DNA of 63,289 nucleotides, taken from contig CAZDED010000009.1 of the NCBI GenBank assembly GCA_964504535.1, forward strand, positions 1 to 63,289, given 5' to 3'. The position numbers and the translations under genes are program-made. The number at the start of each line of letters is the position of its first letter. The first letter of the stretch is position 1. The DNA comes from an uncultured Gammaproteobacteria bacterium. GTDB taxonomy: Bacteria; Patescibacteriota; Microgenomatia; Levybacterales; GWA1-39-11. This document shows, one piece after another, positions 34,708 through 49,432 of this stretch. Below the pieces are notes generated by a model. That model did not search any database. It was not told the origin of the DNA and saw only the letters and a list, made by a program, of their open reading frames with translations.

Positions 34708-34709
34708 AT

Positions 34710-35093: not shown

Positions 35094-35154
35094 TAACTTG
35101 CTTCAAAATTATGTGATATACTACGCTTAATCTGCTCATCTGCCCATTAAGGGT

Positions 35155-37797: not shown

Positions 37798-37801
37798 AAC
37801 T

Positions 37802-37827
37802 GTGTAAGCTGATTTACACTGTTTTTT
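37802..37827 (+). terminator. Intrinsic terminator after the coupling-protein gene (GTGTAA-gctgat-TTACAC followed by TGTTTTTT)
   Basis: A 6-bp stem followed by a T-run, 5 nt after the stop codon. Confidence 0.5.
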
Positions 37828-37870
37828 CATTATTTTAAGGCTAAATAGATAACAAGTTCTATATCTATAC

Positions 37871-37890
37871 CCTTATATAAATATAAGGGG
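37871..37890. promoter_or_regulatory. Perfect hairpin CCCTTATA-taaa-TATAAGGG between the coupling-protein and relaxase-like genes (oriT candidate)
   Basis: Direct reading; an 8-bp inverted repeat about 35 nt upstream of the replication-relaxation gene. Confidence 0.35.
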
Positions 37891-37924
37891 AATAAAAATA
37901 ATTTTAAACCTAAAAATAAACTTT

Positions 37925-38695
37925 ATGATAACTCCTACAGAATTAAAACTAAAAGATAAACAAACAGAGATACTCCTTAACCTATATCGCTTTCGCTTCT
38001 TAAACAGAAACCAAATCCAACGACTACTTAACCACAAGAAACACAACAGAATAATTAAATGGCTAAACGAACTAACAAAAGAAAAATATGTTATTCAGGA
38101 ATTCGAAAGAAAAATAGGAGCCATACCTTCTGTGTATTGTCTTGGAACGAAAGCAAGAAAAGAACTTAAAAAGAGAAAGGAAATTAACGAAAAATTACTT
38201 GAACGGGTATACCAAGAAAAAAACTCTTCTCTGGAATTCAAAGCTCACAATATGGCAATAGCCGATATCTATCTATCGTTAATCGATTTAACAAAAAAAC
38301 ATGATGCAAAACTAACCTTCTATACAGCAGTTGATTTAACAGATATGAAATATCTTGTTCTGCCACATCCGGACGCTTACTTTTCTATTCAACAAAAAGA
38401 AATGACAAAGAGATATTTTCTTGATGTTTTTAATCTCAATGCATCTGAAAAATGGTTATTCAAAAGAGTAAAGCAATATTTTAATTACTACGAAGAAGAG
38501 TATTGGCAAGACCACAACAAAAACCCATTTCCTGAAATTATTCTTGTTTGCTTTGATGAAAAAACCAAAAAGAATCTTATAAAAAATATAAAGAAAGGTT
38601 TGGAGGATGAAGAAAACCTCAGCTTTTCCTTAACAACTATGAAGGATATTAAAAACAAGGGAATAAGTAAAGAAATTTTGCTTAAGGTTGATTAA
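37925..38695 (+). CDS. Replication-relaxation family protein
   Basis: 256 aa. The N-terminus LKDKQTEILLNLYRFRFLNRNQIQRLL and ...PHPDAYF are typical of this family. Confidence 0.65.
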   Translation: MITPTELKLKDKQTEILLNLYRFRFLNRNQIQRLLNHKKHNRIIKWLNELTKEKYVIQEFERKIGAIPSVYCLGTKARKELKKRKEINEKLLERVYQEKNSSLEFKAHNMAIADIYLSLIDLTKKHDAKLTFYTAVDLTDMKYLVLPHPDAYFSIQQKEMTKRYFLDVFNLNASEKWLFKRVKQYFNYYEEEYWQDHNKNPFPEIILVCFDEKTKKNLIKNIKKGLEDEENLSFSLTTMKDIKNKGISKEILLKVD

Positions 38696-38710
38696 AACTT
38701 TCAACATTTT

Positions 38711-38878
38711 CTATTCTTTCCCTTTTTGTTCATTAATTATTTTATACCCATCATTCATAATCTTATTAACAAGTACTGTCACTATCCCCTGTAAATCGCT
38801 TCTCGTGTACTTGTCTTGATTATCGATAAGTTCCAAAATCTCATTTTCGTACTCATTTGTAAGTAGCGGATTTATCAT
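38711..38878 (-). CDS. Unannotated small ORF (55 aa) with a strong SD
   Basis: Hand translation gives MINPLLTNEYENEILELIDNQDKYTRSDLQGIVTVLVNKIMNDGYKIINEQKGKE*. It is preceded by AAAGGAGGTTAAAAAAT. Confidence 0.45.
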   Translation of the reverse strand: MINPLLTNEYENEILELIDNQDKYTRSDLQGIVTVLVNKIMNDGYKIINEQKGKE

Positions 38879-38951
38879 ATTTTTTAACCTCCTTTCCCTA
38901 TTTTAGTTCTTGCTGCTTACCTCTACAATAAGTAAAGGCAAGCTGTAAAAA

Positions 38952-39257
38952 CTAAACTTGTTCGTGTAGTTTTTTAACTTCCGTTAATAAACAGGGAGTA
39001 AAATACAAATCTCTCTCAACCCCTGCACCATATGGTCCCTCTATCTCTTTTAGTTCTTTTAATGAAAAATAGCCGAGTTCCGGAAAATCACCCACAACGT
39101 AGCCGAAAAAAGTATCTTTTCCGTCGAACTCTAACGCATACCATGTCCATTTGGTGAACGGTAGAAAGAATTTACATAAAACTTTTGGGTCTTTCTTGTT
39201 TTCGACAGAGTAAAGAGGAGGTAGTTTCTTCTCCACATAAGAAGGCATAAGCATCAT
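38952..39257 (-). CDS. DUF2958-family protein
   Basis: KFFLPFTKWTWYALEFDGKDTFFGYVVGDFPELGYFSLKELKEI matches the DUF2958 core. The start is placed at ATG 39257 (MMLMPS...) behind AAAGGAGGTGAAAAGTAT; the track start is 39338. Confidence 0.65.
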   Translation of the reverse strand: MMLMPSYVEKKLPPLYSVENKKDPKVLCKFFLPFTKWTWYALEFDGKDTFFGYVVGDFPELGYFSLKELKEIEGPYGAGVERDLYFTPCLLTEVKKLHEQV

Positions 39258-39392
39258 ATACTTTTCACCTCCTTTCTTTTCACTTTTTAGAATTTGTTTT
39301 CCTGAAAGCATGCTCATGCTTTCAGATATGAAGAGCACTTAAGCGGGGTGAATTTTGCAAGGGCGAATGTAATGAGTGCACTTTACCCTTGT

Positions 39393-39413
39393 CAAAAGAG
39401 GGGTGCAACCCCT
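39393..39413 (-). terminator. Intrinsic terminator closing the R-M/LexA-like/MBL operon (AGGGGT-tgc-ACCCCT followed by CTTTTG)
   Basis: Read on the minus strand about 20 nt after the 39433 stop codon. Confidence 0.5.
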
Positions 39414-39432: not shown

Positions 39433-39918
39433 TTATCTACTTGCCTTTATTCTTTTTGTTATATAGTCCGTTTGTTTTCTATAGGAACACAAGAACATAA
39501 CCAAAAGTAAACTAATTAATATATAAGGACTCCAGCTTTCAAGTAGTTGAAGTTTTAATTCAATAAATTCATAAAATTTTAACAAAAACAATAGTACCAA
39601 CATTGAACAAAATGTTCGATACATATTATTCGTCTCGGAAAGAAGATCAATCATTGAATCTTTTTTTGAAGCAAAAATAAATTCCTTGTAGTCTGTGAAC
39701 TTTAAGAACGAAACCTTTCTCAATAGTGGTTCAATGACTAACGACCCAAATCTACTAATCACTAATCCTATGAAATAGTATGTAAAAGCCGCAATAATAA
39801 GATTGTCCTGCACTAAGGAAAAGATTGTAAACTTATCGAGAACAATTATAAATATTGTGCCGGGTAACAAATAGTTAAAAAGATTGTATGATGATATCTT
39901 GTCTAAAATTTCCTTCAT
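39433..39918 (-). CDS. Four-TM membrane protein, hypothetical
   Basis: 161 aa. It starts 3 nt after the stop of the upstream MBL gene. Confidence 0.5.
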   Translation of the reverse strand: MKEILDKISSYNLFNYLLPGTIFIIVLDKFTIFSLVQDNLIIAAFTYYFIGLVISRFGSLVIEPLLRKVSFLKFTDYKEFIFASKKDSMIDLLSETNNMYRTFCSMLVLLFLLKFYEFIELKLQLLESWSPYILISLLLVMFLCSYRKQTDYITKRIKASR

Positions 39919-39921
39919 GAT

Positions 39922-40791
39922 TCAATCTATTAAAAAGCTTCGGTAGGTTCTACTTCCATCAAGGTCAAAACTTACCCATAAATGTCCATCGCTACGCGTA
40001 GTAAGGACTTTTCTTAGTGGTCCAATGCCATTAAGACTTACTCCCGTGGTTACATGTTGTGCATATCTACTTGCCATACCACCCTGTGTATCATACATAA
40101 TGTCTCTATCTGAAATGACTATACAATCTACATTAGAGCAATGCAAGAAAATATTTTCATGATAGCCGTTATCGTGACCATGATGTGATGCAACATAAAC
40201 ATTTGTGGAATTAAGATGACTCTGTATTTCTGGATTCTGTAAAAGTTTCTCCCAGGAAGGTGTTTTTTCAAGATCTCCACCAATACAGATTTTTGATCCG
40301 CCATATTCAACAAATACTAATTGACTCAAATGATTTGTGTTGATTTCGTATGAATTGAGATCGCTCCTATTTAGCGAGTATATATATTTATTATACGGTG
40401 GCATATGATAGGGAACCGGCGTGGTATAAGTGTCTTTAAGGTAACAAATATGCCTCAATGCCTCGGTAATTTCGGGCTTAATACTTTTTAATTCGCTTGA
40501 TGAAATATTTTGAGCCAATGAAACGGTTTGAATATGCATTTTTTGTCTAATACTGGGAAGCCCAAAAAAATGATCATGGTCATAATTTGTGATCGTAAGA
40601 TTTCCGAGCACATGCCTTGTTCCATCATGATGGATTAGATTTTGTTTTACTAAAAAATCAATTGGATCATAATTTTCTCCGGAAGCACAATCAACAAGCA
40701 TCCCGTATTCTGGATGACTTCGTGGATAAAAAAAGATGCATTGTGCTTGTCCAACATTGAATATCAAAATCTCTAAATTATTGCTGTTCAT
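39922..40791 (-). CDS. MBL-fold metallo-hydrolase (divergent)
   Basis: 289 aa; ITNYDHDHFFGL (HxHxDH-like) and VASHHGHDNGYH. Confidence 0.65.
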   Translation of the reverse strand: MNSNNLEILIFNVGQAQCIFFYPRSHPEYGMLVDCASGENYDPIDFLVKQNLIHHDGTRHVLGNLTITNYDHDHFFGLPSIRQKMHIQTVSLAQNISSSELKSIKPEITEALRHICYLKDTYTTPVPYHMPPYNKYIYSLNRSDLNSYEINTNHLSQLVFVEYGGSKICIGGDLEKTPSWEKLLQNPEIQSHLNSTNVYVASHHGHDNGYHENIFLHCSNVDCIVISDRDIMYDTQGGMASRYAQHVTTGVSLNGIGPLRKVLTTRSDGHLWVSFDLDGSRTYRSFLID

Positions 40792-40808
40792 ATAAATTCC
40801 ATTTCACG

Positions 40809-41867
40809 TTAATCTTCCACTTTGTCGTGAAATGGTTCTTCTTGTGCCACAGACCAATCCGGTCGTTCAGGAGCCTCGTGATGATGATGCAAAATATTTT
40901 TTCTATTAACATATACTCTTGTTCCTTGTTTCTTGAGCGCATTTGTAATTTTTTTTGCAGGATGCTTTGGATTGTCTCCAGAAGCAGAAATGAATGCGGT
41001 TTCAGCTTTAATTCTTGATAGCACCTTACTACTAAGATTTCTCTTACTTCCATGGTGGGGTACGTCTAAAAACCGAAGGTCGTTAAGTATTAGTCCTTGG
41101 CTGTCAGCATAATCCGATGCAAGTGTTAATCCAGTTTTTCCTGCATCTCCGGTAAATAAAAGCTTGTAACCATCGATGTTAAACAAAATAATTGTACTAG
41201 TATTATTTTCGGGCGAAGTTGTGTCTTCGTCGTTATTTATTAAGTCTATACCAGTATTATCCTCCAGCCAATTAATAGCCTCTTCAGCCATTTTTTGAAT
41301 CGGTGCAAATAATTGACTGAGTGTCTCAATCGGAGAAGGAGTTGACCGAAATAACGGTATTTGAGTTTCATAGTATTCCTTTGAGGGGCCTAAAATGTGC
41401 ATTTTCCCACTGTATCCAGTTGTCCCTTGAAAAGGTTCAATAATTGTAATTCCTTTGCTGGTTGCAAGTTCCTCTAGCTCGTTCGCATTTTGGATCGATT
41501 TCTCAAGTCTTTCCTTCAATCCAGAAAAGGTAATATTTTTATTTTTAAAAAAGTTTTTTATTTCTTGGGAATGTTCCCACGGTTTATGCATAAGTAAGGC
41601 ACCAACCCTTAACTTATCTAATACGATAAGGAGCCCAGAAATATGGTCGATATCTGGATGTGTTGAAATTACTAGGTCAACATAGTCAGTATTGTAATAT
41701 TGGCTAATATGTTGAACAATTAGTTCACCTGCCTCGCTAAAACCCCCATCGATTACAATGATAAATTGCTCGTCGCGCGTCCCGGTTAAATTACCAAAAC
41801 GCAATATAATAGCGTCACCACTTTTTTTACCATTACCAACCGGTATGTAATCTACTTCATATGCCAT
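40809..41867 (-). CDS. MBL-fold metallo-hydrolase, ComEC/Rec2 beta-lactamase-domain-like
   Basis: 352 aa; GDAIILRF...IVIDGG, VISTHPDIDHISGL, LLFTGDAG, LDVPHHGSKRN. Confidence 0.7.
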   Translation of the reverse strand: MAYEVDYIPVGNGKKSGDAIILRFGNLTGTRDEQFIIVIDGGFSEAGELIVQHISQYYNTDYVDLVISTHPDIDHISGLLIVLDKLRVGALLMHKPWEHSQEIKNFFKNKNITFSGLKERLEKSIQNANELEELATSKGITIIEPFQGTTGYSGKMHILGPSKEYYETQIPLFRSTPSPIETLSQLFAPIQKMAEEAINWLEDNTGIDLINNDEDTTSPENNTSTIILFNIDGYKLLFTGDAGKTGLTLASDYADSQGLILNDLRFLDVPHHGSKRNLSSKVLSRIKAETAFISASGDNPKHPAKKITNALKKQGTRVYVNRKNILHHHHEAPERPDWSVAQEEPFHDKVED

Positions 41868-41869
41868 AT

Positions 41870-42109
41870 TTAATGTTTTTTATCTTTGGGTGGATTAGGA
41901 TCGTGTCCGGGGGGAACAGTGTCACTGTCCCGAATTTTCCCGTCAATCCCATGAATTCTGACCTCTCCACCACCAGAGTTAGCTGAAAAGTGTTTTGCAT
42001 TTGCTTCAGCTTGTCTTTGAGTACTACTGTTTGAACTTGCTCGAGAAGCATTATCTCGCTTGGAATCCCATCCGCCATTTGGATTTTTTACTACATGATA
42101 ATTTGCCAT
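41870..42109 (-). CDS. DUF2188-family small protein
   Basis: YHVVKNPNGGWDSKRDNASRASS...TQRQAEANAKHF...GGEVRIHGIDGKIRDSDT fits the DUF2188 pattern. Confidence 0.65.
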   Translation of the reverse strand: MANYHVVKNPNGGWDSKRDNASRASSNSSTQRQAEANAKHFSANSGGGEVRIHGIDGKIRDSDTVPPGHDPNPPKDKKH

Positions 42110-42111
42110 TT

Positions 42112-42729
42112 TTATCGACCTCCTTTCTTGATTACGTCTGACACAACTCCTTGTATTGAAAAGTCTTCAAAAAGATAAATTGGTTTGTTTGCTGGATTTG
42201 TAGATTCGGGCTCTAATCGATAACCTTCTTCACCTTTTGTTAATTTTTTAATAGTTGCTTCCTCGCCAATTAAAGCCACAATTCTACTACCAAAATCTGC
42301 TGTAGACTGTTTTTTGATAAGTACATAATCCCCATCATCAATAGTTTTTCCTGCAACACTTGTATCATTCATACTGTCACCAACTGCACGCAAAAAGAAA
42401 TAATCTTGTTGGGTTCCACGAATTCTCGAAGCATCATATGGGATATATGCTTCTATATTCTCGGTTGCCAAGAGGGGCATACCGCAAGCCACATTTCCAA
42501 CTAAGGGGATTTGTATTTTTTCCGAAGAAACGGGAAGCGACAAGCCACGAGATTTATCAATATATCCTTTTTCTTTCAAAGCATCTGTGTGACGTTGTAC
42601 TGAACTTATTTGAGTGTAATTGAGGGCAATTCGTAATTCCTCAAGTTTAGGGGGAGAGCCCTTTTTATGAGTTAAATCATTAATAGTAGAAAGAACAATT
42701 TTTTGTTTTGACGTAAGAGGATTCCGCAT
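42112..42729 (-). CDS. LexA-like repressor / S24 peptidase paralogue carried by the element
   Basis: It has a LexA-type winged helix (LTSKQKIVLSTINDL...SVQRHTDALKEKGYI), a cleavage-site region GNVACGMPLL, Ser (GDSM) and Lys (ATIKKL). The start is placed at ATG 42729 (MRNPL...); the track start is 42765. Confidence 0.8.
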   Translation of the reverse strand: MRNPLTSKQKIVLSTINDLTHKKGSPPKLEELRIALNYTQISSVQRHTDALKEKGYIDKSRGLSLPVSSEKIQIPLVGNVACGMPLLATENIEAYIPYDASRIRGTQQDYFFLRAVGDSMNDTSVAGKTIDDGDYVLIKKQSTADFGSRIVALIGEEATIKKLTKGEEGYRLEPESTNPANKPIYLFEDFSIQGVVSDVIKKGGR

Positions 42730-42770
42730 GCGTACTATTATACGCGAAATAGCGTAATTATGCAAGGGGT

Positions 42771-43907
42771 TTACGAAGCAACGAATGATTTTTGCATCAA
42801 AGCCTGAAATTGTATATCTAAATCTCCTGATTGTTTGAGCATTTTTTGTTTAAGTGATTCTGTTTTCTGAACTACATCAGAAAATTTTTTTTGTAAAACG
42901 ATCGGAATGTTTGGTATTGTTAAGTCTCTTATTGCATCTTTTCTTATAGTTTTTGTAACTGCTCCCTTTACCTTCTTTTGAATTATATCTTCACCATATT
43001 TAGAACGAAGAAGATAATACATAAATTGAGTATCAGTATATTCGTTGAATCTTAATAAGAAAGCGTTCATACCAAGTGAAACCGGCCTATTAAGTTTTGG
43101 CATCAAATAAACTTTGCCTGCACTTCCAATTTTGTTAATAATCATTTCACCCCCGTATACTTTTGATTTGTCTAAAAAATTATATGCGTGCTGGTCGATA
43201 TATTTAACATCTTTAATAAAGTTATTGCTTTCTAGGTCTGAGGTTCTAACCATAAGTGCATAATCGGGTTCTGAAAGCAATGTCACGTTTTTCTTAAGAG
43301 TTTCGTAACTACCGTTTGCGTGGTAGTCAGTCAAATTTAGAATGAACTTTCCTAAGTTTGAATATGTCCAATTCTTGTCATTTTTATGTAAGTCTCCGAA
43401 CATATCTAAAAAAACAGATCTTAAGTAATCATCTAGTAGGTTAAGTGATTCTTTTCGTTTTTGACGAATATAATCAACCTTATCAAACACTTCTACAATT
43501 CGTTTTTGATCATCAAGAGTCAACTTCGGAATGTCAATATTGTCTATGAATCCTTTTGAAATATGTTTCAGTCCAGCTCCTTTGAATCCTTGTTCTAAAA
43601 TCCATATATTACCAGACAGATAATAATAAATAAATTTTATATCGAATTTTTGAAAAAAATCAGACCTTAATTGCGCTACCAAGCAATCTGTTGAGACTGA
43701 AAAAGGATTTTCGCATAGATGAATGCTTGCGTTACCACCAGTTCCAAAAATTAGACTCGGCATGTTGAATTGGAAGGAATTGGAATATTTTGAAAGAGTT
43801 GGACTTGACGTAAAGAATGGATATGACCCTTCAGTTAATCCGTCCCCTGCTTTTATGTGCGATTTTTCTTGAAATTTCAGTATCTGCGAGAATTTTATGG
43901 AATCCAT
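42771..43907 (-). CDS. hsdS: Type I restriction-modification specificity subunit
   Basis: 378 aa with two target-recognition domains separated by a conserved helical spacer (LTLDDQKRIVEVFDKVDYIRQKRKESLNLLDDYLRSVF). Confidence 0.85.
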   Translation of the reverse strand: MDSIKFSQILKFQEKSHIKAGDGLTEGSYPFFTSSPTLSKYSNSFQFNMPSLIFGTGGNASIHLCENPFSVSTDCLVAQLRSDFFQKFDIKFIYYYLSGNIWILEQGFKGAGLKHISKGFIDNIDIPKLTLDDQKRIVEVFDKVDYIRQKRKESLNLLDDYLRSVFLDMFGDLHKNDKNWTYSNLGKFILNLTDYHANGSYETLKKNVTLLSEPDYALMVRTSDLESNNFIKDVKYIDQHAYNFLDKSKVYGGEMIINKIGSAGKVYLMPKLNRPVSLGMNAFLLRFNEYTDTQFMYYLLRSKYGEDIIQKKVKGAVTKTIRKDAIRDLTIPNIPIVLQKKFSDVVQKTESLKQKMLKQSGDLDIQFQALMQKSFVAS

Positions 43908-43909
43908 AT

Positions 43910-45427
43910 CTATGATTTTTTTAAATCACTAAGACCTGCAACAATTTCTCGTTCCAAAAGTTCAATTTTTTCTAAAATTAATTTTGGATCTTCATATTCC
44001 TCTTCAGTATGATCAGTCACTTTATAATGATTAATACTCAAATCAAGATTATCATTTTCAATCTCCTTTTTTTCAACATAGAAAAACTTACCCGAACGAT
44101 CATTATTCTTCTGTTCTTTTCTATGTTTCCATTTCTCAACAATATCTGGAATGTCATTTTCTTTTATTCTGCTTCGTTTGTCATCCAAACTATATCCATC
44201 TGCCTTCATGTCATAAAACCAAACTTTTTCTGTTTCTCCACCTTTAACAAAAATAAGAATCGCTGTGCTGACGCCCGCATAAGGCTTAAATACTCCACTA
44301 GGTAAGGATATAACTCCTTGAAGTTCACAATCATCTAACAACATTTTCCTTGCATGTCTATGAGCGTTACTTGAACCAAAAAGAACACCATCAGGGACAA
44401 TTACGCCTGCGCGCCCTCCGATTTTAAGTGATTTGATAATTCTATTTATAAAAAGAAGCTCGGTTTTGGTTGTCGCAAGTGAAAGTGACTCATTGATATC
44501 TCCCTTATCAATACTTCCTTTAAAAGGCGGGTTTGCCATAATGACATCAAAATGATTATCATCTTCATGCTTTTTAGAGAGAGTGTCCTTTTGTTCGATG
44601 TTTGGGCTGGATATTCCGTGCATCATTAAATTCATGAGTCCAATTCGCACCATGCTGTCATCCATATCGTACCCGTAAAATGTTTTTTCTTTTAGTTGTT
44701 TCCATTGTCTTTCATCGGTAAGTTTATCTCCTACCAACCCTCGAGTAAGTCCGTTTTCATCAATTTGTTGGTGCTCTTTACTTGTATGTTGAGTAAGAAT
44801 GTGTTGGTAGGCTCCAAGCAAGAATCCTCCCGTTCCACACGCTGGATCACAAATCGTATCACCAAGTTTTGGATCAACTAATTCGCAAATGAGCTGAATT
44901 ATGTGTCTGGGAGTACGAAATTGACCAAGTTTTCCGGCACTCGTTATCTCTGAAAGTAGATACTCGTATAAATCTCCTTGTGTATCTTGAAAGCCTTGAC
45001 CTGCAGATTCTTGCTTTGATATTTCTTCAAAAATTTCATCAATGATGTTTACTGCTTCAACTAATAGGGAAGGCTTTGAAATAATAAAAACAGCGTTACC
45101 CATATGCTTTGCAAAATGGCTTTCCTCATCTCCCAATGTTTTTAAGAAAGGGAAAACTTTGGTTTGAATATGTGTCAACATCTCTCCACCTTCCATATGG
45201 CGGAAATGACTCCATCTCAAAGCATCATTTTCTCCATTAAATATTGACTTATAAGCCTCTCCTGTAAATTTGGCATCTTGTCTTTTTTTAATATCAAATT
45301 GATCAAGCCTTTTCATAAAAAGAAGATATGATATTTGCTCAATTGCTGTTAGAGGGTTTGATATGCCACCGCTCCAGAATTTATCCCAAAGACGGTCGAT
45401 TGATGATTTAATTTTTGTATTAAGCAT
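43910..45427 (-). CDS. hsdM: Type I restriction-modification N6-adenine DNA methyltransferase subunit
   Basis: HsdM_N (SIDRLWDKFWSGGISNPLTAIEQISYLLFMKRL), motif I (DPACGTGGFL) and motif IV (NPPF). The start at ATG 45427 overlaps the hsdR stop by 8 nt; the track start is 45481. Confidence 0.92.
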   Translation of the reverse strand: MLNTKIKSSIDRLWDKFWSGGISNPLTAIEQISYLLFMKRLDQFDIKKRQDAKFTGEAYKSIFNGENDALRWSHFRHMEGGEMLTHIQTKVFPFLKTLGDEESHFAKHMGNAVFIISKPSLLVEAVNIIDEIFEEISKQESAGQGFQDTQGDLYEYLLSEITSAGKLGQFRTPRHIIQLICELVDPKLGDTICDPACGTGGFLLGAYQHILTQHTSKEHQQIDENGLTRGLVGDKLTDERQWKQLKEKTFYGYDMDDSMVRIGLMNLMMHGISSPNIEQKDTLSKKHEDDNHFDVIMANPPFKGSIDKGDINESLSLATTKTELLFINRIIKSLKIGGRAGVIVPDGVLFGSSNAHRHARKMLLDDCELQGVISLPSGVFKPYAGVSTAILIFVKGGETEKVWFYDMKADGYSLDDKRSRIKENDIPDIVEKWKHRKEQKNNDRSGKFFYVEKKEIENDNLDLSINHYKVTDHTEEEYEDPKLILEKIELLEREIVAGLSDLKKS

Positions 45428-48230
45428 ATTGGAATATATGGTCTGTAAATTGAAGTATTTCTTTTTGCATAGGCGAATCAAATAAACCTAAGAAACCGTT
45501 TGCATGAAGCTTTGTAAATGGTTCTTGAACCAAGTCCTTTTTCGTAAGCTCACCGTTTTCAACAATAAAGGTTTGTAGGGTATGCAAAAACTGTATTTGC
45601 TTTGCTGAAAGAGTGTTGTGTGTTGCAATAAACTCAGCAAAAGCCTCAGACACTTTCTCAGGAAAAGTGATCAAACCCCCAATTCCCATTATGTGCCTAA
45701 TAAGATCTAGAAAACTTACCTTACGCGCATCATAAGCCTTTTGAAGATTTTCTTCAGTTGGGTAGGGCTCATATTCCTGTAAAGTAGTTGCAAGTTCCTC
45801 AACCTCTTCGCTTGTTATGCTTTCCCCTTGCTTTATCTTCTGTAAAATTTCATTTTCATCTTCAAGCTTTTTTATGAGAGCTTCAACTTTTTCTCTGTAT
45901 TTTTGAATTGTTATACGCTCATTTGCAGGACCGAACTTAATATATTCTTTTTCTAAGGTTAAATCTCTCAAGTTGAGTGAGTCCTGGTCAGGCTTGATAC
46001 CTTCCTCACGGTATTTCATTAAAGGCGCAATCCTTTCTATCAAAATGTCTAAATCTTTCTCATCGGCAATTGTTAAATAGCCACTATGTAATACTGCTTC
46101 GATAAGATCCTTTTCTTTAGCAACTACATTAACCGTTAATGGAAGATCTGAAACCATTTCAATAATAACCTCTTCGAGAGTCTGAACTTTCTTATCCTGT
46201 TTTTCAGTATCTGAAAGTTTTGCGATAGAATACTGAAGAACCTTTAGTTCAAAACTCATCGCTTTATAATCCTCACCAGTTCTAGTTCTCATTAGTGGTG
46301 CAATCTCTTTTTGAAGATATTGCTTTTTTTCATCATTTAGTTTTTGCCAGAAGGTATCGTTTACAACTTCTAATTTAGTCTTTGCATCTAAAATTACCAC
46401 GTTATTTTGTGGAAGCTTTTCTATATCACTTTTAAGTTTTTTAATTGTATTTTGAACAACAAATTCATTGCCAACAGTTTCTGCAGAGTTCAGTTTTTCT
46501 AACTTTACTTCAAAAAGTCTTACCGGTATTGGTTTTGTAGGTCTTTCTGTTTTTCCCGTAGGATTCATTTCGAAATACTCAAAATTATCCCAACAATCCA
46601 TGATTAAAAACTTATCTTTTTCTTTACACCAGGGTTTCATTTTCTTAGGTTCCAGAAGTCTTGTTCCTCGACCAATCATTTGCCAGAATTTTGTATACGA
46701 AAATACGGGCTTCGCAAAAACTAGATTTACAACCTCACGCACATCAATACCTGTATCAAGCATGTCAACGCTTATGGCAACTCTTGGAAAATCATTATTA
46801 ATAAACTGATCTAACAACCCTCCTTTTCCATAAACACGAGGGTCATCCGAAACAATAACTTTAGCAAGATTACCTTTGTGTTCTGGATACAGATCATCAA
46901 ATACTTCCTGCAAGCGTCTTGCATGTTTCATTGTCATTGCAAAAAATATGGTTTTTCCGGGCAAAGTTCCGCTCTCATCCTTAATGCATTCTTCCATAAA
47001 TTCTTGGACAATTAATGCGTTTGTCCCTTTATTGGTAACCTTCTTTTCAAGATCAGTTCCTTCGTAATTTATCTCTTCGGGCTCTTTCCCGTCGGCTAAA
47101 AGCTTTTGTTGCTCAGCAAGAGAAATATTTTGCTTATGAATTCCTTCTTTTTGGAATTTAGTTTTAATTCTTAAGACTTCATAATCACAAAGATAGGGTG
47201 GTTTGTGATTTATTGCTTCCTCATAAGAATAGGCATACGTTGGAAGACCATCTTCGCATTCAAACAAGCTAAATGTATTATGCTCAACAACATCTTTTGG
47301 AGTTGCAGTAAGACCTAATTGAACACAATCAAAATAATCAAAAATGTTTTTATAAACGTTATAAATTGATCTATGACTTTCATCTGCAACGATCATGTCA
47401 AAGAAGTGAGGGCTTATAGGACAATCTTTATTCTCAATAATATTTAGCATCGTTGGGTAAGTAGTTACATAAACACGTCTGTCTGTAGCTATTTCTGTTT
47501 CTCCAATTTTTGGCCACACAGGGGCGTTTGGTAAAAATTCTTTAAACGCATCTAGGGCTTGGTTTCTTAGGGCTATTCTATCTACTAAAAATAACACTCT
47601 TTGCACTCTGTTGGTTCTCATAAGCACATCAAGCATCGATACGCAGGTTCTTGTTTTTCCAGTACCCGTAGCCATTACAACCAACGCTTTTCTGTGTCCT
47701 TTTTCAAGACTTTCTAGAACTGATCTGATTGCCTCAATTTGGTAAGGTCTGCCGGAAATATCACGATCAATAAGTTCTTGTGAAATTGGTTTTGCATTTT
47801 TTCTAAGGAAAAGGAGTCTTTCTAAATCTTTTCTTGTTGGGAATCCATAAACTTTTCGTGGAGGAGTTTTCTCGGTGTCCCAAAAATAAATATCGTGTCC
47901 ATTTGTATAGAATACAAACGGCATGTCTTTACCTGAGTTTTTTTGAATGTTTTCTGCGTATTGTCTTGCTTGTTCTTGACCTATGCGAGCGTCTTTGGAT
48001 GTCTTTTTAGCTTCAACAACCGCTAACGGATAACCATCTTCACCCAAAAGTGCATAATCAGCATATTGAAAACCTTGATGTTCATGTTCTGGTTCCTTAA
48101 CTCCTTCCGGTAATCCAATCCATATATCTAACTCTGAAGTAACCTGAGAGGGATCGTTTACATTCCAGCCAGCTTTTAATAGGCGAAGGTCTATTATTTC
48201 CTGACGTGTTGATGCTTCGCTTTGACTCAT
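45420..48230 (-). CDS. hsdR: Type I restriction enzyme R subunit (EcoEI-like C-terminal domain)
   Basis: 936 aa with an N-terminal nuclease region, helicase motifs (MATGTGKT, DESH) and the C-terminal LSAKQIQFLHTLQTFIVENGELTKKDL. Confidence 0.92.
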   Translation of the reverse strand: MSQSEASTRQEIIDLRLLKAGWNVNDPSQVTSELDIWIGLPEGVKEPEHEHQGFQYADYALLGEDGYPLAVVEAKKTSKDARIGQEQARQYAENIQKNSGKDMPFVFYTNGHDIYFWDTEKTPPRKVYGFPTRKDLERLLFLRKNAKPISQELIDRDISGRPYQIEAIRSVLESLEKGHRKALVVMATGTGKTRTCVSMLDVLMRTNRVQRVLFLVDRIALRNQALDAFKEFLPNAPVWPKIGETEIATDRRVYVTTYPTMLNIIENKDCPISPHFFDMIVADESHRSIYNVYKNIFDYFDCVQLGLTATPKDVVEHNTFSLFECEDGLPTYAYSYEEAINHKPPYLCDYEVLRIKTKFQKEGIHKQNISLAEQQKLLADGKEPEEINYEGTDLEKKVTNKGTNALIVQEFMEECIKDESGTLPGKTIFFAMTMKHARRLQEVFDDLYPEHKGNLAKVIVSDDPRVYGKGGLLDQFINNDFPRVAISVDMLDTGIDVREVVNLVFAKPVFSYTKFWQMIGRGTRLLEPKKMKPWCKEKDKFLIMDCWDNFEYFEMNPTGKTERPTKPIPVRLFEVKLEKLNSAETVGNEFVVQNTIKKLKSDIEKLPQNNVVILDAKTKLEVVNDTFWQKLNDEKKQYLQKEIAPLMRTRTGEDYKAMSFELKVLQYSIAKLSDTEKQDKKVQTLEEVIIEMVSDLPLTVNVVAKEKDLIEAVLHSGYLTIADEKDLDILIERIAPLMKYREEGIKPDQDSLNLRDLTLEKEYIKFGPANERITIQKYREKVEALIKKLEDENEILQKIKQGESITSEEVEELATTLQEYEPYPTEENLQKAYDARKVSFLDLIRHIMGIGGLITFPEKVSEAFAEFIATHNTLSAKQIQFLHTLQTFIVENGELTKKDLVQEPFTKLHANGFLGLFDSPMQKEILQFTDHIFQYA

Positions 48231-48279: not shown

Positions 48280-48663
48280 CTAGTTCGATTTTTTCGTTTT
48301 TTCCTTCTGTTCCTTATCTTCAAGTTTTTTTGAGAGTTCTTCTAGTTGGTCTCTGGTTATAAGTACTTTGCTTGGCACAGACCCGACATAAGGCTCTATT
48401 ATTCCATTTTCAGAGAGAGCTTCCATAAGTCTCATTGCTCTATTAAAACCGATCTGCATTCTTCGTTGAAGTAATGACGCTGATACACGATCATGTTGCA
48501 AGGTAATCGTTACTGCTTTGTCATACAATTCGTCTTGGCTACCATCAATATTTGCTTCTTCAAATGCTTCTTCGAAAGACTGTTGATTGGTTAAAAAATT
48601 TTCAATAATTTTAATACGCTTTTCAAGCTCTTTTATTTTTTTTAATAACTCATCATTACTCAT
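48280..48663 (-). CDS. Stand-alone FtsK-gamma (winged-helix, KOPS-binding type) domain protein
   Basis: ELYDKAVTITLQHDRVSASLLQRRMQIGFNRAMRLMEALSENGIIEP is a clear FtsK_gamma signature, preceded by a coiled-coil. The start is placed at ATG 48663 (MSNDELL...); the track start is 48873. Confidence 0.65.
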   Translation of the reverse strand: MSNDELLKKIKELEKRIKIIENFLTNQQSFEEAFEEANIDGSQDELYDKAVTITLQHDRVSASLLQRRMQIGFNRAMRLMEALSENGIIEPYVGSVPSKVLITRDQLEELSKKLEDKEQKEKTKKSN

Positions 48664-48709
48664 ATTGAAATTGTACCACCAAAAAAATAAATAAGGGTAT
48701 AATTTATCT

Positions 48710-49432
48710 GTGATACGAAAACTTAAGAATTTATTTACTGATATTATTAGCGACTTTACCTCCTGTAAAAACAGGGCTGTATATCTTCTATCATTTTCTC
48801 CAATCAACAAGAAGTTTCTTTTTGCTACATTAATTGCCATATTCTTATTTACCATCTTCCGGTCTTCAAGCAAATATGAATTTTATCTTTATTTTTTAGA
48901 AATTATGTTTGTTAGTCTTATTACATTCATTATTTTTGTACAGTCTGATACTTACTGGTTTTTAAGAAAGAAGGCGTGGAGTTTTAAGCTTGTCGTTAAA
49001 AACAGGAAGAGCATACAAACCACAATCAAAAAAATTAAAGAACTTAAACTTGAGAAAGAGAAAAATCCAAGCGGTGCAATATATGTTACTGCATATAACG
49101 ATTTGGTAGGATATAAACCTCATGCACGAAGACTTGAAATAGAAATTATAATTTTACTTGCAATTCTTTTTTTCACTTTCCCACCATTCTTTATTTTCAA
49201 TCTTGCCCTTTTCTGCATGATGTTTTTTTATGTAACGTTTTATGAAAGCCAAGCCCCAACCTATGTATGGCAAGATATAATGACTCTGACAAATAGCGTT
49301 AAGTCTTTATATGAAGATGATCCAGAAAACTGCAGAAAATTTATCCTTGAAAATGATTCACTATATGTTCGCGAGCTTGGCAATATTTATAGAACTGTAA
49401 GAAATTATAAAAGCAATATCTTTAATCATTAA
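48710..49432 (+). CDS. Hypothetical multi-TM membrane protein
   Basis: 240-aa ORF divergent from the FtsK-gamma gene. The start is uncertain. Confidence 0.4.
   Translation: MIRKLKNLFTDIISDFTSCKNRAVYLLSFSPINKKFLFATLIAIFLFTIFRSSSKYEFYLYFLEIMFVSLITFIIFVQSDTYWFLRKKAWSFKLVVKNRKSIQTTIKKIKELKLEKEKNPSGAIYVTAYNDLVGYKPHARRLEIEIIILLAILFFTFPPFFIFNLALFCMMFFYVTFYESQAPTYVWQDIMTLTNSVKSLYEDDPENCRKFILENDSLYVRELGNIYRTVRNYKSNIFNH

What the first reader, a model, noticed from the sequence alone, without database searches (positions are those of the whole stretch)
39433..48230. Eight-gene operon: type I R-M fused transcriptionally to a LexA-like autoprotease, DUF2188, two MBL-fold hydrolases and a membrane protein (candidate composite defence module)
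Seen in sequence: the order on the minus strand is hsdR, hsdM, hsdS, LexA-like, DUF2188, MBL-A, MBL-B, TM protein. Junctions range from an 8-nt overlap to a 17-nt gap; the hsdS/LexA-like gap is 5 nt with the track start at 42765, or 41 nt with the ATG 42729 I prefer. A promoter-like extended -10 lies only upstream of hsdR (48240-48248). The only good intrinsic terminator comes after the TM gene (39393-39413).

Established knowledge: type I R-M operons normally contain only hsdRMS. Defence genes cluster in islands. S24 LexA/CI-type proteins couple gene expression to RecA-ssDNA (DNA damage or phage infection). MBL-fold proteins of the ComEC/beta-CASP kind are nucleases.

Inference: the five downstream genes may be a damage- or infection-triggered nuclease/effector system co-opted to the R-M system, or an abortive-infection back-up. 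I do not recognise this combination among named defence systems.
Basis: partly seen in the sequence, partly recalled or inferred. Interest (0 to 1): 0.72.

Follow-up and report, generated by a model that had tools for sequence, protein, structure and literature searches.

The report
Restriction system plus LexA-controlled defence cassette
The eight genes are real but form two units on a mobile element: an ordinary type I restriction system, then a self-regulated LexA-type repressor heading a swappable slot that here holds an untested candidate anti-phage module and in relatives holds CBASS.

Summary
All eight minus-strand genes exist as described, with tight junctions. hsdRMS is a complete, ordinary type I (EcoAI-like) restriction system.

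The downstream genes are not unnamed. MBL-A, MBL-B and the membrane protein match PADLOC candidate PDC-M48. DUF2188 matches candidate PDC-S16. Both are published but untested.

The cluster is not simply one operon. The 41-nt hsdS/lexA gap holds a conserved promoter for a leaderless transcript (TTGCAT-17-TATAAT-7-ATG 42729). Its operator, TACGC-N6-GCGTA, recurs at a near-constant offset before LexA-like genes in many other loci, whatever lies upstream.

Loci anchored on the LexA-like protein show a swappable cargo slot. CBASS fills it in 27 loci; MBL/TM, AbiEii, helicases or unknown genes fill it in others. In the nearest relative (L106) homology stops at the DUF2188 stop codon and CBASS replaces the MBL/TM genes. 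The hsdRMS-to-LexA backbone recurs in three relatives, and one carries the same MBL-A/MBL-B/TM cargo.

Both MBL proteins are ComEC-type. MBL-A keeps all expected metal-binding motifs. The MBL-A/four-helix membrane pair also sits in defence islands and in the E. coli P2-like phage hotspot.

Verdict: a composite defence locus on a mobile element. It is a new variant of a known kind. Function and mechanism are inferred.

The parts
45420..48230 (-). hsdR, type I restriction subunit (936 aa), EcoAI/type IB-like
   Evidence: Pfam HSDR_N, ResIII, Helicase_C, EcoEI_R_C. PADLOC REase_I 2.6e-173. NCBIfam EcoAI-like hits, below the curated cut-offs. 80-84% aa identity to hsdR in L106, L125 and L132.
43910..45427 (-). 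hsdM, N6-adenine methyltransferase. The likely start is ATG 45427, an 8-nt overlap with hsdR.
   Evidence: N6_Mtase 6.4e-67 and HsdM_N. PADLOC MTase_I 7.3e-181, aligned from residue 19 of the listed ORF. The NPPF and DPACGTGGF motifs are visible in the translation.
42771..43907 (-). hsdS, specificity subunit (378 aa, two target-recognition domains)
   Evidence: Methylase_S, two stretches. PADLOC Specificity_I 4.4e-69. Only 27-34% aa identity to relatives whose hsdR and hsdM are 80-86% identical, which fits swapping of the recognition domains.
42730..42765 (-). Own promoter and operator of the LexA-like gene. -35 TTGCAT 42765-42760; palindrome TACGC-N6-GCGTA 42756-42741; -10 TATAAT 42742-42737; third half-site TACGC 42734-42730; ATG 42729 lies 7 nt after the -10 hexamer, implying a leaderless mRNA.
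   Evidence: Sequence read. It is the only exact palindrome in the 63-kb window. The same layout appears in front of LexA-like genes in dozens of loci, whatever lies upstream. The exact palindrome occurs in 15 of 185 loci, always once and always just upstream of the LexA-like gene; in the 11 loci re-measured it starts 27-29 nt before the ATG, plus L001 at 33 nt by coordinates.
42112..42729 (-). LexA/CI-type self-cleaving repressor (205 aa)
   Evidence: LexA_DNA_bind plus Peptidase_S24. TIGR00498 lexA 125.5 bits against a cut-off of 110.95. phrog_4 transcriptional repressor. C82-G83, S119 and K161 are invariant in 17 homologues.
41870..42109 (-). DUF2188 protein (79 aa), part of the regulatory head
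   Evidence: PF09954 4.6e-19. PADLOC PDC-S16 2.2e-22. It follows the LexA-like gene ahead of different cargos, for example CBASS, AbiEii, helicases and MBL (cargo types). Nucleotide homology with L106 ends exactly at its stop codon, 41870.
40809..41867 (-). MBL-A, free-standing ComEC-type metallo-beta-lactamase-fold hydrolase (352 aa)
   Evidence: PADLOC PDC-M48B 6.3e-84, full length. H70, D72, D74, H75, H94, H99, D241, H271, H272 and H302 are invariant. The model has pLDDT 79.7. Best PDB match is 9ic4, the ComEC MBL domain, E 4.9e-14. The sequence motifs STHPDxDH and VPHHGS align to ComEC.
39922..40791 (-). MBL-B, second and more divergent ComEC-type MBL-fold protein (289 aa). The first histidine of motif 2 is replaced by an invariant asparagine.
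   Evidence: PADLOC PDC-M48B 5.5e-23. N69, Y70, D71, D73, H74, D173, H203, H204 and D228 are invariant. The model has pLDDT 88.9. Best PDB match is 9ic4, E 4.3e-11. The GD and HHG motifs align to ComEC.
39433..39918 (-). Membrane protein with four helices in a 2+2 arrangement (161 aa), the conserved partner of MBL-A
   Evidence: PADLOC PDC-M48A 4.5e-65. phrog_11864 1.7e-35. Four hydrophobic helices are predicted, and a partner with the same kind of topology follows MBL-A in about 70 of 80 loci. 39% identical to the partner in the E. coli P2-like phage.
39393..39413 (-). Short hairpin plus U-run after the last gene; a possible weak terminator
   Evidence: Sequence. Fold -10.7 kcal/mol, z -0.43. 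Not reported by the terminator scan.
33122..39338 (.). Mobile-element context: tRNA-Glu, large serine recombinase, type IV coupling protein, Replic_Relax protein, a 55-aa ORF and DUF2958
   Evidence: The 55-aa ORF has a 63% identical homologue downstream of the cargo in L132.
48280..48873 (-). FtsK-gamma-domain protein just upstream of hsdR, probably part of the element backbone
   Evidence: PF09397 1.6e-22. An FtsK_gamma protein also lies near the cassette in L081.

Best explanation
The region is a composite defence locus carried by an integrative, mobilisable element of a Patescibacteria-like genome. It has two units that lie head to tail.

Unit 1 is a complete, conventional type I restriction-modification system (hsdR, hsdM, hsdS).

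Unit 2 starts 41 nt after hsdS. It begins with a LexA/CI-type repressor transcribed from its own promoter as a leaderless mRNA. A palindromic operator (TACGC-N6-GCGTA) overlaps the -10 region. I infer that the repressor dimer binds there, holds the unit at a low self-regulated level, and is removed by RecA-stimulated self-cleavage at Cys82-Gly83 when DNA damage or phage replication produces single-stranded DNA.

The repressor, usually with DUF2188, is a portable regulatory head in front of an exchangeable cargo slot. Here the cargo is the PDC-M48-type module: a ComEC-type MBL hydrolase (MBL-A), a second degenerate MBL paralogue (MBL-B) and a four-helix membrane protein. I infer that, once derepressed, the MBL enzyme acts as a metal-dependent nuclease or phosphodiesterase working with the membrane partner. 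It would either destroy invading DNA at the membrane or kill or arrest the infected cell as a second line behind restriction.

Shown: the gene content, the conserved promoter and operator, the intact catalytic residues, the cargo swapping, and the residence in defence hotspots.
Inferred: operator binding, RecA dependence, nuclease activity, and the anti-phage phenotype.
For: 1. Own promoter and operator.
- Window: TTGCAT-17-TATAAT-7-ATG with TACGC-N6-GCGTA.
- It is the only exact site in the window.
- The same architecture precedes nearly all LexA-like homologues, whatever lies upstream.
- The exact palindrome occurs in 15 of 185 loci, each once, always just upstream of the LexA-like gene; where re-measured it starts 27-29 nt before the ATG.

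2. The self-cleavage machinery is intact and invariant.

3. The head has variable cargo.
- Six of six LexA-anchored genome contexts carry different downstream genes, including SMODS/CBASS, AbiEii and helicases.
- Among roughly 60 metagenome loci with downstream sequence, 27 carry CBASS cyclases, with membrane effectors, E2 or Cap15 in the representatives annotated.

4. Exact swap point. L106 has hsdR 84%, hsdM 86%, LexA about 90% and DUF2188 78% identical. Nucleotide homology ends at the DUF2188 stop codon, and a CD-NTase plus a 4TM effector follow.

5. The same layout recurs. L125 has hsdRMS-LexA-MBLA-MBLB-TM. L081 has LexA divergent, then DUF2188-MBLA-MBLB-TM next to a different restriction-like system.

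6. The core pair is conserved. MBL-A is followed directly by a multi-helix (mostly 2+2) membrane protein in about 70 of 80 loci across many phyla.

7. Defence context.
- PADLOC PDC-M48 and PDC-S16 hits.
- Gammaproteobacterial loci continue with VWA/PP2C/kinase genes resembling TerY-P, HEPN proteins and SF1 helicases.
- The pair sits after gpA in E. coli P2-like phages. By my own recall, that is the position of the tin/old cargo hotspot.
- The supplement of PMC9122126 lists 'hypothetical + Lactamase_B' gene sets in a table I read as P2-like hotspot contents.

8. ComEC-type fold with complete motifs.

9. Precedent. CapH/CapP, a repressor cleaved after DNA damage, controls CBASS, DISARM and DUF2188-containing operons (bioRxiv 10.1101/2022.04.27.489752).
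Against: - No experiment exists for PDC-M48, for DUF2188 or for this LexA clade. Payne et al. list their 145 PDC candidates as untested.
- No terminator separates hsdS from lexA, so read-through from the hsd promoter is likely. The two units may be co-expressed.
- hsdRMS of the same family also sits next to MBL-A/4TM, without LexA, in 13 or more distant loci. This hints at a closer functional tie to restriction than 'two independent units' implies.
- In L001 and L105 the cassette is followed directly by type IV secretion genes. A role in the element's own biology is not excluded.
- MBL-fold enzymes act on many substrates. The second-best structural match is a phosphorylcholine esterase.
- MBL-B lacks the first histidine of motif 2.
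Confidence: 0.6

Rival explanations
1. All eight genes are one integrated system and one operon. The LexA-like protein, DUF2188, the MBL proteins and the membrane protein are accessory subunits or a dedicated back-up of this particular type I restriction enzyme, as PrrC is for EcoprrI.
For: - The genes are co-oriented with tight junctions and no terminator.
- hsdRMS-to-LexA recurs in L106, L125 and L132 with 80-86% identical HsdR and HsdM.
- MBL-A/4TM lies directly downstream of hsdRMS of the same family in 13 or more other loci. In L041 hsdS overlaps MBL-A by 4 nt.
- PDC candidates were defined from genes embedded in BREX, DISARM or type I R-M systems.
Against: - A conserved autonomous promoter and operator lies in the hsdS/lexA gap.
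- The LexA head occurs without hsdRMS in most loci.
- The cargo behind the same backbone is swapped for CBASS.
- The full five-gene cassette sits next to a different restriction-like system in L081.
- MBL/TM occurs in P2-like phages with no type I system adjacent in the 5.6-kb stretch viewed.
Confidence: 0.15
2. The LexA-like protein is the master repressor of the mobile element, comparable to SetR of SXT or CI of lambda. On this reading MBL-A, MBL-B and the membrane protein serve the element itself. They might process DNA at the membrane during transfer, provide entry exclusion, or kill the host on induction. They would not be a general anti-phage system.
For: - The window element carries a serine recombinase, a coupling protein and a relaxase-like protein.
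- In L105, and likewise in L001, LexA-DUF2188-MBLA-TM is followed on the same strand by TrbC, TrbL, TraC-like and VirB4-like type IV secretion genes.
- Other LexA loci are flanked by terminase-like and ParB-methylase genes plus a serine recombinase.
- The ComEC-type MBL domain belongs to a DNA-transport machine.
Against: - The same slot holds CBASS or AbiEii, which are not transfer functions.
- MBL-A/4TM also occurs in chromosomal defence islands with no transfer genes and in the P2-like phage hotspot.
- The operator was found only at the repressor's own promoter, not in front of recombinase or transfer genes.
Confidence: 0.13
3. The LexA-like protein is the ordinary cellular SOS repressor of this organism. 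The downstream genes would then be SOS-induced repair or cell-cycle genes that happen to lie beside a restriction system.
For: - It passes NCBI's lexA equivalog cut-off, 125.5 against 110.95 bits.
- It has hundreds of 60-93% identical homologues in Patescibacteria, several of which their sources name LexA.
- The catalytic residues are intact.
Against: - The genes downstream of this clade differ from locus to locus and are mostly defence systems.
- It sits inside mobile-element contexts.
- Two S24/LexA-like genes occur within 6 kb on one contig, L104.
- The operator is seen only at its own promoter in about 1.9 Mb of sampled sequence (my estimate of the total), although that sampling is biased to neighbourhoods.
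Confidence: 0.07
4. The architecture is as in the best explanation, but the MBL proteins are not nucleases. They would hydrolyse a small-molecule or envelope phosphodiester, such as a cyclic nucleotide or a phosphocholine-type decoration, and so change signalling or the phage receptor.
For: - The second-best structural matches are the Pce/CbpE phosphorylcholine esterase. Cyclic-nucleotide-related MBL proteins also appear in the match list for MBL-A.
- The MBL-A domain is embedded in a PHROG 'tail protein' family.
- The slot otherwise carries nucleotide-signalling systems.
Against: - The best matches by both fold and sequence are the ComEC MBL domain. By my own recall, not verified here, that domain is a DNA nuclease.
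- Neither MBL protein has a predicted hydrophobic segment that could act as a signal peptide or membrane anchor, so an envelope substrate is unlikely.
Confidence: 0.05

Closest known systems
PADLOC candidate systems PDC-M48 (M48A membrane protein plus M48B MBL hydrolase) and PDC-S16 (DUF2188); Payne et al., bioRxiv 10.1101/2024.01.29.577857
   Same: - Full-length HMM matches of the membrane protein, MBL-A, MBL-B and DUF2188.
- The candidates were defined from genes embedded in BREX, DISARM or type I R-M systems, which fits the context here.
- PDC-M48 is a two-gene cassette seen 63 times, assuming the first column of the supplementary table is the count.
   Different: - Here there are two MBL paralogues, not one.
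- The module is headed by a LexA-type repressor and DUF2188.
- It lies after hsdS rather than between hsd genes.
- The longer (205-260 aa) membrane partner found in most loci is missed by the PADLOC models.
- The candidates have no experimental support.
CapH/CapP-regulated (and CapW/BrxR-regulated) CBASS and other defence operons
   Same: - A repressor that is cleaved or released on DNA damage sits at the head of interchangeable defence cargos, including CBASS.
- DUF2188 proteins recur in those operons too.
   Different: - The regulator here is a single S24 self-cleaving LexA/CI-type protein, not an HTH protein plus a separate metallopeptidase, and not a WYL protein.
- It is co-directional with and first in the operon, whereas CapH/CapP are divergent from theirs.
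- None of the 20 best-ranked of 34 papers containing both 'CBASS' and 'LexA' appeared, from title and abstract, to describe such a regulator.
Phage lambda immunity and exclusion operon cI-rexA-rexB (comparison from my own knowledge)
   Same: - An S24 repressor is translated from a leaderless mRNA and co-transcribed with an exclusion module whose last component is a small four-helix membrane protein.
   Different: - There is no sequence relationship to RexA or RexB: Pfam gave no hit for the membrane protein and none for MBL-B.
- The cytoplasmic partner here is an MBL hydrolase.
- The repressor carries a LexA-type winged helix, not a lambda-type HTH.
ComEC/Rec2 DNA-uptake channel (C-terminal MBL domain)
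   Same: - It is the best match by both fold and sequence for MBL-A and MBL-B, with shared STHPDxDH, GD and PHHGS motifs.
- The MBL domain works together with a membrane component.
   Different: - There is no OB-fold or competence channel domain.
- TIGR00361 scores 51.5 bits against a cut-off of 190.
- The membrane partner is a separate four-helix protein.
- The genes sit in defence and mobile-element contexts, not competence loci.
MBL-fold components of known defence systems: LmuA-MBL (Lamassu), Avs1a, and the MBL associated with DRT systems
   Same: - The same MBL subfamily gives partial HMM matches: LmuA 4.5e-32, RTasMBL 1.4e-26, Avs1a 1e-15.
   Different: - None of the partner genes that define those systems (SMC-like LmuB, a STAND NTPase, a reverse transcriptase) is present in the cluster.
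Defence cargo hotspots of P2-like phages and P4-like satellites (Rousset et al. 2022, PMC9122126)
   Same: - A fixed backbone position holds interchangeable defence systems.
- An MBL plus 162-aa membrane-protein pair, 39% identical to the window's pair, sits after gpA in E. coli P2-like phages.
- The pair appears as 'hypothetical + Lactamase_B' in the paper's supplementary table.
   Different: - The slot here belongs to Patescibacteria elements and is headed by a dedicated repressor.
- The validated 'hydrolase plus transmembrane protein' system in that paper uses a HAD-like hydrolase, not an MBL one.

Membership tests
Type I restriction-modification system | HsdR with an N-terminal nuclease region and an SF2 helicase motor; HsdM N6-adenine methyltransferase; HsdS with two target-recognition domains; all adjacent | tested here: met
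   Pfam and PADLOC hits. The NPPF motif is visible. The genes are contiguous with an 8-nt overlap and a 2-nt gap.
PADLOC PDC-M48 (candidate) | Adjacent genes matching the PDC-M48A (membrane protein) and PDC-M48B (MBL hydrolase) models | tested here: met
   PDC-M48A 4.5e-65. PDC-M48B 6.3e-84 (MBL-A) and 5.5e-23 (MBL-B).
PADLOC PDC-M48 (candidate) | Demonstrated anti-phage activity | not testable with these tools
   The source paper lists the PDC systems as untested.
PADLOC PDC-S16 / Pfam DUF2188 | Match to the family model | tested here: met
   PDC-S16 2.2e-22. PF09954 4.6e-19.
LexA / peptidase S24 self-cleaving repressors | N-terminal LexA-type winged-helix DNA-binding domain plus a C-terminal S24 domain with a Ser/Lys dyad and an Ala/Cys-Gly cleavage site | tested here: met
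   Pfam hits. TIGR00498 score above its cut-off. C82-G83, S119 and K161 invariant.
LexA / peptidase S24 self-cleaving repressors | Palindromic operator at its own promoter (self-regulation) | tested here: met
   TACGC-N6-GCGTA overlaps the -10 hexamer and is conserved in position across loci. Binding itself was not tested.
Cellular SOS regulator LexA (global regulon) | Operators upstream of recA, uvr and other repair genes; a single housekeeping copy | tested here: inconclusive
   The exact operator was found only at its own promoter in the window and in 185 loci. Two S24 genes lie on one 10-kb contig. No whole genome could be scanned.
LexA / peptidase S24 self-cleaving repressors | RecA-ssDNA-stimulated self-cleavage | not testable with these tools
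   Needs biochemistry.
CapH/CapP regulator pair | HTH repressor plus a separate Zn-metallopeptidase encoded divergently from the regulated operon | tested here: not met
   No metallopeptidase is present in the cluster. The repressor is an S24 self-cleaving protein and is co-directional with its cargo.
ComEC/Rec2 | OB-fold (DUF4131), competence membrane channel and MBL domain in one protein; score above the TIGR00361 cut-off | tested here: not met
   Only the MBL domain matches. TIGR00361 gives 51.5 bits against 190. The Pfam hits to MBL-A are all MBL-superfamily models.
Rst_Hydrolase-3Tm (Rousset 2022) | HAD-like hydrolase plus a transmembrane protein | tested here: not met
   The paper describes a HAD-like hydrolase. 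The hydrolases here have the MBL fold.
Lamassu / Avs type 1 / DRT with MBL | Presence of LmuB (SMC-like), a STAND NTPase, or a reverse transcriptase next to the MBL protein | tested here: not met
   No such genes lie among the eight or their neighbours.
CBASS | CD-NTase cyclase plus an effector | tested here: not met
   The window has no cyclase. CBASS occupies the equivalent slot in L106, L132 and 25 other loci.
Lambda RexAB | Sequence homology to RexA and RexB | tested here: not met
   No Pfam family matched the membrane protein or MBL-B. The similarity is in organisation only.

The most novel reading that the evidence does not exclude
A LexA paralogue, with DUF2188, is a portable DNA-damage sensor head that Patescibacteria mobile elements place in front of interchangeable abortive-infection cargos. 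In one lineage it is wired directly behind a type I restriction system. Restriction failure or restriction-generated DNA ends would then, through RecA, switch on a second line of defence. The MBL-A/MBL-B/four-helix membrane cargo would be a new, mechanistically distinct defence system: a split ComEC-like nuclease working at the membrane.
Probability: 0.3. Interest if true: 0.78.

Novelty: new variant of a known kind. Interest (0 to 1): 0.58.

Why it matters
- **A third regulatory route.** It would add an S24/LexA-type self-cleaving repressor to the two known DNA-damage-linked regulators of defence systems, CapH/CapP and the WYL proteins CapW/BrxR. It would also place the SOS logic directly upstream of CBASS and other cargos in the little-studied Patescibacteria.
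- **Support for an untested candidate.** The natural swap between CBASS and MBL/TM at one nucleotide-defined junction is strong guilt-by-association evidence that PDC-M48 is a real defence system.
- **DUF2188 reassigned.** The swap point places DUF2188 with the sensing and regulatory part rather than with an effector.
- **A discovery resource.** The slot behind this head holds many unknown gene families that are candidates for new defence genes.
- **A practical test.** An E. coli version of the MBL/TM pair exists in P2-like prophages, so the function can be tested in a standard host.

Tried and rejected
- **Consensus scans.** Promoter and terminator hits across 38.5-49 kb were at chance level, so they were not used as evidence.
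- **RNA families.** Rfam found only tRNAs, and none in the region.
- **Attachment sites.** A search for direct repeats flanking the element found nothing convincing.
- **MBL-A versus MBL-B.** Profile-profile comparison aligned only the C-terminal motifs with low probability, so the paralogy rests on the fold and on the ComEC matches.
- **Recalled match to 'Hydrolase-3TM'.** I suspected the cassette equals Rousset's Hydrolase-3TM system. The paper shows a HAD-like hydrolase, so I rejected this.
- **Second small gene.** I tested whether the alternative 64-96 aa second gene (family C2) is a diverged DUF2188. hhalign says no; it looks like a Myb/SANT-type HTH protein.
- **PADLOC coverage of the long partner.** No PADLOC PDC-M48A model hits the 205-260 aa membrane partners; the only hit is one weak Csx27 match.
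- **Literature.** There were no hits for 'PDC-M48', for MBL plus LexA plus anti-phage, or for LexA/S24 plus CBASS. The Burroughs and Aravind 2020 paper on DUF2188 is not held.
- **HMM drift.** My LexA profile drifted onto ParB-methylase genes because of fused ORFs such as L011. Labels such as 'LexA427-' or 'LexA440-' are methylases and were ignored.
- **Paralogue count.** Counting LexA paralogues in assembly GCA_040960375.1 is unsafe, because its contig numbering suggests a multi-genome assembly. I use only the two S24 genes on the single contig L104.

Full report
**1. Observation**

- Pfam, PADLOC and NCBIfam confirm the identities:
  - hsdR (HSDR_N, ResIII, EcoEI_R_C; REase_I 2.6e-173);
  - hsdM (N6_Mtase; MTase_I 7.3e-181);
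  - hsdS (two Methylase_S stretches);
  - a LexA_DNA_bind plus Peptidase_S24 protein;
  - DUF2188;
  - a Lactamase_B protein (MBL-A);
  - a second protein with no Pfam hit (MBL-B);
  - a small hydrophobic protein.
- The junctions are an 8-nt overlap, then gaps of 2, 41, 2, 2, 17 and 3 nt.
- The regulatory-signal part of the observation does not hold.
  - Promoter-like and terminator-like matches in 38.5-49 kb are no more frequent than in shuffled sequence.
  - The hairpin after the last gene is short and not statistically distinctive.

**2. The downstream genes are already catalogued as candidates**

- PADLOC models match at full length: PDC-M48A to the membrane protein (4.5e-65), PDC-M48B to MBL-A (6.3e-84) and to MBL-B (5.5e-23), and PDC-S16 to DUF2188 (2.2e-22).
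- These PDC systems come from Payne et al. (bioRxiv 10.1101/2024.01.29.577857).
  - The authors collected genes embedded in BREX, DISARM and type I R-M systems.
  - They released 145 untested candidates.
  - PDC-M48 is a two-gene cassette seen 63 times, if the first column of their supplementary table is the count.
- So the combination is recognised, though only as an untested candidate.

**3. An autonomous, self-regulated promoter in front of the LexA-like gene**

- On the minus strand the 41-nt gap reads TTGCAT-17 nt-TATAAT-7 nt-ATG(42729).
- A perfect palindrome, TACGC-N6-GCGTA (42756-42741), overlaps the -10 hexamer. A third half-site lies just before the ATG.
- It is the only exact copy of the palindrome in the window.
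- The same layout precedes homologous LexA-like genes whatever lies upstream. Examples are hsdS, a divergent ParB-methylase gene, and other genes.
- Across 185 fetched loci the exact palindrome occurs in 15 loci.
  - It occurs once in each, and always just upstream of the LexA-like gene.
  - In the 11 of these loci re-measured it starts 27-29 nt before the ATG. In L001 it starts 33 nt before the ATG.
- A second promoter variant keeps both half-sites but 17 nt apart.
- The -10 hexamer ending 7-8 nt before the ATG implies a leaderless mRNA.
- Homologues are mostly about 205 aa, which confirms ATG 42729 as the start.
- The repressor keeps an invariant Cys82-Gly83 and an invariant Ser119/Lys161 dyad. 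By my own recall, UmuD has this type of cleavage site.
- The LexA unit can therefore be transcribed on its own.
- Nothing resembling a terminator separates it from hsdS, so read-through from the hsd promoter is also likely.

**4. What is conserved around MBL-A**

I fetched 80 genome loci anchored on MBL-A, spanning Patescibacteria, Proteobacteria, Planctomycetota, Actinomycetota, Bacteroidota and others.

- In about 70 loci the next gene, usually within -3 to +20 nt, encodes a membrane protein.
  - It mostly has two N-terminal and two C-terminal helices.
  - It is either the 160-aa form found in the window or a 205-260-aa form that PADLOC misses.
- A second MBL paralogue is present in about 14 loci, in varying order.
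- A LexA-like gene lies directly upstream in 25 loci: 14 co-directional and 11 divergent.
- DUF2188 lies between them in about 8 loci.
- hsdRMS of the window's family lies upstream on the same strand in 13 loci. Several more loci have other type I genes adjacent.
- The gammaproteobacterial examples continue with VWA/PP2C/kinase genes (resembling TerY-P), HEPN, SF1-helicase and DEAD/MZB genes. These are classic defence islands.
- The closest relative, L081, has LexA divergent, then DUF2188-MBLA-MBLB-TM. It sits next to a SNF2/PLD helicase, an Eco57I-type methylase and a PDDEXK nuclease rather than a type I system.

**5. What is conserved around the LexA-like gene**

- All six genome contexts of 69-86% identical LexA homologues show the repressor followed on the same strand by different genes:
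  - a small protein, a SMODS cyclase and further genes (four loci);
  - DUF2188-AbiEii;
  - DEAD-box helicases.
- In three of these six contexts the divergently transcribed neighbours include a ParB-methylase and a terminase-like or similarly sized gene, with a serine recombinase at the edge.
- A metagenome scan anchored on the repressor gave 80 more loci.
- Clustering the downstream genes and annotating representatives shows the following.
  - CBASS cyclases occur in 27 loci, accompanied by 1TM, 2TM/Cap15 or 4TM effectors and E2-like proteins.
  - MBL-A occurs in three further loci.
  - The rest are AbiEii, helicases and many unknown families.
  - The second gene is DUF2188 in 18 loci. In 17 loci it is an unrelated small HTH protein of Myb/SANT type.
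- The repressor, with or without DUF2188, is therefore a conserved head in front of an exchangeable defence cargo slot.

**6. Relation to the restriction system**

Three metagenome contigs share the window's backbone.

- **L106.** HsdR is 84%, HsdM 86%, LexA about 90% and DUF2188 78% identical.
  - Nucleotide homology runs from the 3' end of hsdS through the promoter, lexA and DUF2188.
  - It stops at the DUF2188 stop codon (window 41870).
  - A CD-NTase and a 4TM CBASS effector then replace the MBL/TM genes.
- **L125.** The order is hsdR-hsdM-hsdS-LexA-MBLA-MBLB-TM, with 54-83% identical proteins and no DUF2188.
- **L132.** The order is hsdRMS, one extra gene, LexA, then CBASS. A homologue of the window's 55-aa ORF lies beyond the cargo.

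The linkage of hsdRMS to the LexA head is thus a conserved backbone feature of one element lineage. It is not universal, and the cargo behind it is modular. HsdS differs strongly (27-34% identity) while HsdR and HsdM are conserved. This is the usual pattern of specificity swapping.

**7. The proteins**

- **MBL-A** keeps all the expected metal-binding motifs: H70-x-D72-x-D74-H75, H94/H99, D241, H271-H272 and H302 are invariant.
- **MBL-B** has an invariant N-Y-D-x-D-H in place of H-x-D-x-D-H. It keeps D173, H203-H204 and D228.
- Both were modelled with reasonable to good confidence: pLDDT 79.7 and 88.9.
- Both hit the ComEC beta-lactamase-like domain (PDB 9ic4) best, at E 4.9e-14 and 4.3e-11. 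Next come the Pce phosphorylcholine esterase and then beta-CASP RNases.
- Profile searches give the same answer at the sequence level.
- Neither protein has a predicted hydrophobic segment, so I take both to be cytoplasmic.
- They are not ComEC: the channel and OB-fold domains are absent and the TIGR00361 score is far below its cut-off.

**8. Independent defence-context evidence**

- The membrane protein, DUF2188 and MBL-A have PHROG families.
- IMG/VR prophage contigs carry the MBL/TM pair.
- E. coli P2-like phages (D8, 11W, 12W, P24E6b) carry an MBL protein and a 162-aa membrane protein right after the replication gene A.
  - Both are 39% identical to the window's proteins, and the two genes converge on each other.
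  - By my recall that position is the tin/old cargo hotspot.
- The pair is present in 22 of 5,426 complete E. coli genomes, where it is annotated 'ComEC/Rec2 family competence protein'.
- The supplement of Rousset et al. 2022 lists 'hypothetical + Lactamase_B' gene sets in a table I read as P2-like hotspot contents.
- The hydrolase-plus-membrane-protein system that paper validated is HAD-like and therefore different.

**9. Context in the window**

- Downstream of the cassette lie DUF2958, a 55-aa ORF, a Replic_Relax protein, a type IV coupling protein and a large serine recombinase abutting tRNA-Glu.
- Upstream of hsdR lies an FtsK-gamma protein.
- This is an integrative, mobilisable element. 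Related cassettes sit beside type IV secretion genes (L001, L105) or in prophage-like elements.

**10. Mechanism, with the status of each step**

- **Shown:**
  - two units;
  - an autonomous conserved promoter and operator;
  - an intact self-cleavage site;
  - cargo modularity with a defined swap point;
  - an MBL plus four-helix membrane protein core;
  - ComEC-type active-site motifs.
- **Inferred from family knowledge (LexA, CI, UmuD):** dimer binding to the palindrome, self-repression, and RecA-ssDNA-stimulated self-cleavage leading to induction.
- **Inferred by analogy and weakest:** MBL-A, possibly as a heteromer with the degenerate MBL-B, is a nuclease that works with the membrane partner. 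It would either destroy incoming DNA or trigger abortive infection.
  - Analogies are ComEC, the lambda cI-rexAB layout, and the membrane effectors of CBASS that occupy the same slot.
  - The published precedent for DNA-damage control of defence cargo, including DUF2188 operons, is CapH/CapP.
  - None of the listed papers combining CBASS and LexA appeared to describe an S24/LexA-type equivalent.

**11. Verdict**

- The finding is real, but it is better described as a composite locus than as a single novel eight-gene system.
  - The restriction system is ordinary.
  - The MBL/TM and DUF2188 genes are known untested candidates.
- What is new is the LexA-type head, with its conserved leaderless promoter and operator, and its swappable cargo (CBASS, MBL/TM and others).
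  - In one lineage this head is wired directly behind hsdRMS.
- I rate it a new variant of a known kind, with moderate interest (0.58).

Noticed in passing
L014, L017, L054, L058 (region just upstream of MBL-A; sequences): Where the LexA-like gene is divergent from MBL-A, a conserved element GATAACCTAAACAAG-N5-GGTTATCCACAAT lies just before the MBL-A start. It contains an inverted repeat and a DnaA-box-like TTATCCACA.
   Followed up: no
L083-L088 and L106-L185, genes downstream of the LexA-like gene: The cargo slot behind the LexA head holds many gene families with no annotation, for example C5, C12 and C13. An unknown 357-556 aa protein (C3) recurs in 12 loci, often as the last or near-last gene of otherwise different cassettes. 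These families are candidates for new defence genes or for a backbone marker.
   Followed up: partly
L109, L111, L144, L147, L152-L155 and others, second gene after LexA: In 17 loci the position of DUF2188 is taken by an unrelated 64-96 aa protein. It looks like a Myb/SANT-type HTH protein, with consensus W..eQE.qLkkLakGnTPt..ig.klGRtp.a...KA..L.vSL.
   Followed up: partly
window 40809-41867 (MBL-A) against PHROGs: MBL-A matches positions 619-885 of the 1077-position profile phrog_7043, annotated 'tail protein' (E 7.6e-61). Some phages therefore appear to carry this ComEC-type MBL domain inside a large tail-associated protein.
   Followed up: no
L186 (Escherichia phage D8, OM475426.1 29200-30788); E. 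coli genomes H27-H34: E. coli P2-like phages carry a convergent MBL plus 162-aa membrane-protein pair right after gpA. The pair is present in 22 of 5,426 complete E. coli genomes, where PGAP names it 'ComEC/Rec2 family competence protein'. That name is probably misleading.
   Followed up: partly
window 33122-33194 (+) and 33133-34707 (-): tRNA-Glu overlaps the 3' end of the large serine recombinase ORF by about 60 nt. This suggests the element is integrated at or into the tRNA gene. No flanking direct repeats were found.
   Followed up: partly
window 42771-43907 against L106, L125 and L132: HsdS is only 27-34% identical between elements whose HsdR and HsdM are 80-86% identical. Only the hsdS 3' end is conserved at the nucleotide level. 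This fits exchange of target-recognition domains within one backbone.
   Followed up: no
L041 (Akkermansiaceae MAG), hsdS/MBL-A junction: hsdS overlaps the MBL-A start by 4 nt, with no LexA gene. This is a possibly translationally coupled hsdS-MBLA-4TM arrangement in a distant phylum.
   Followed up: no
L104 (contig JBFOMN010012041.1): Two S24/LexA-like genes, each followed by its own small gene set, lie within 6 kb on one 10-kb contig. An IS110-family transposase gene lies between them.
   Followed up: no
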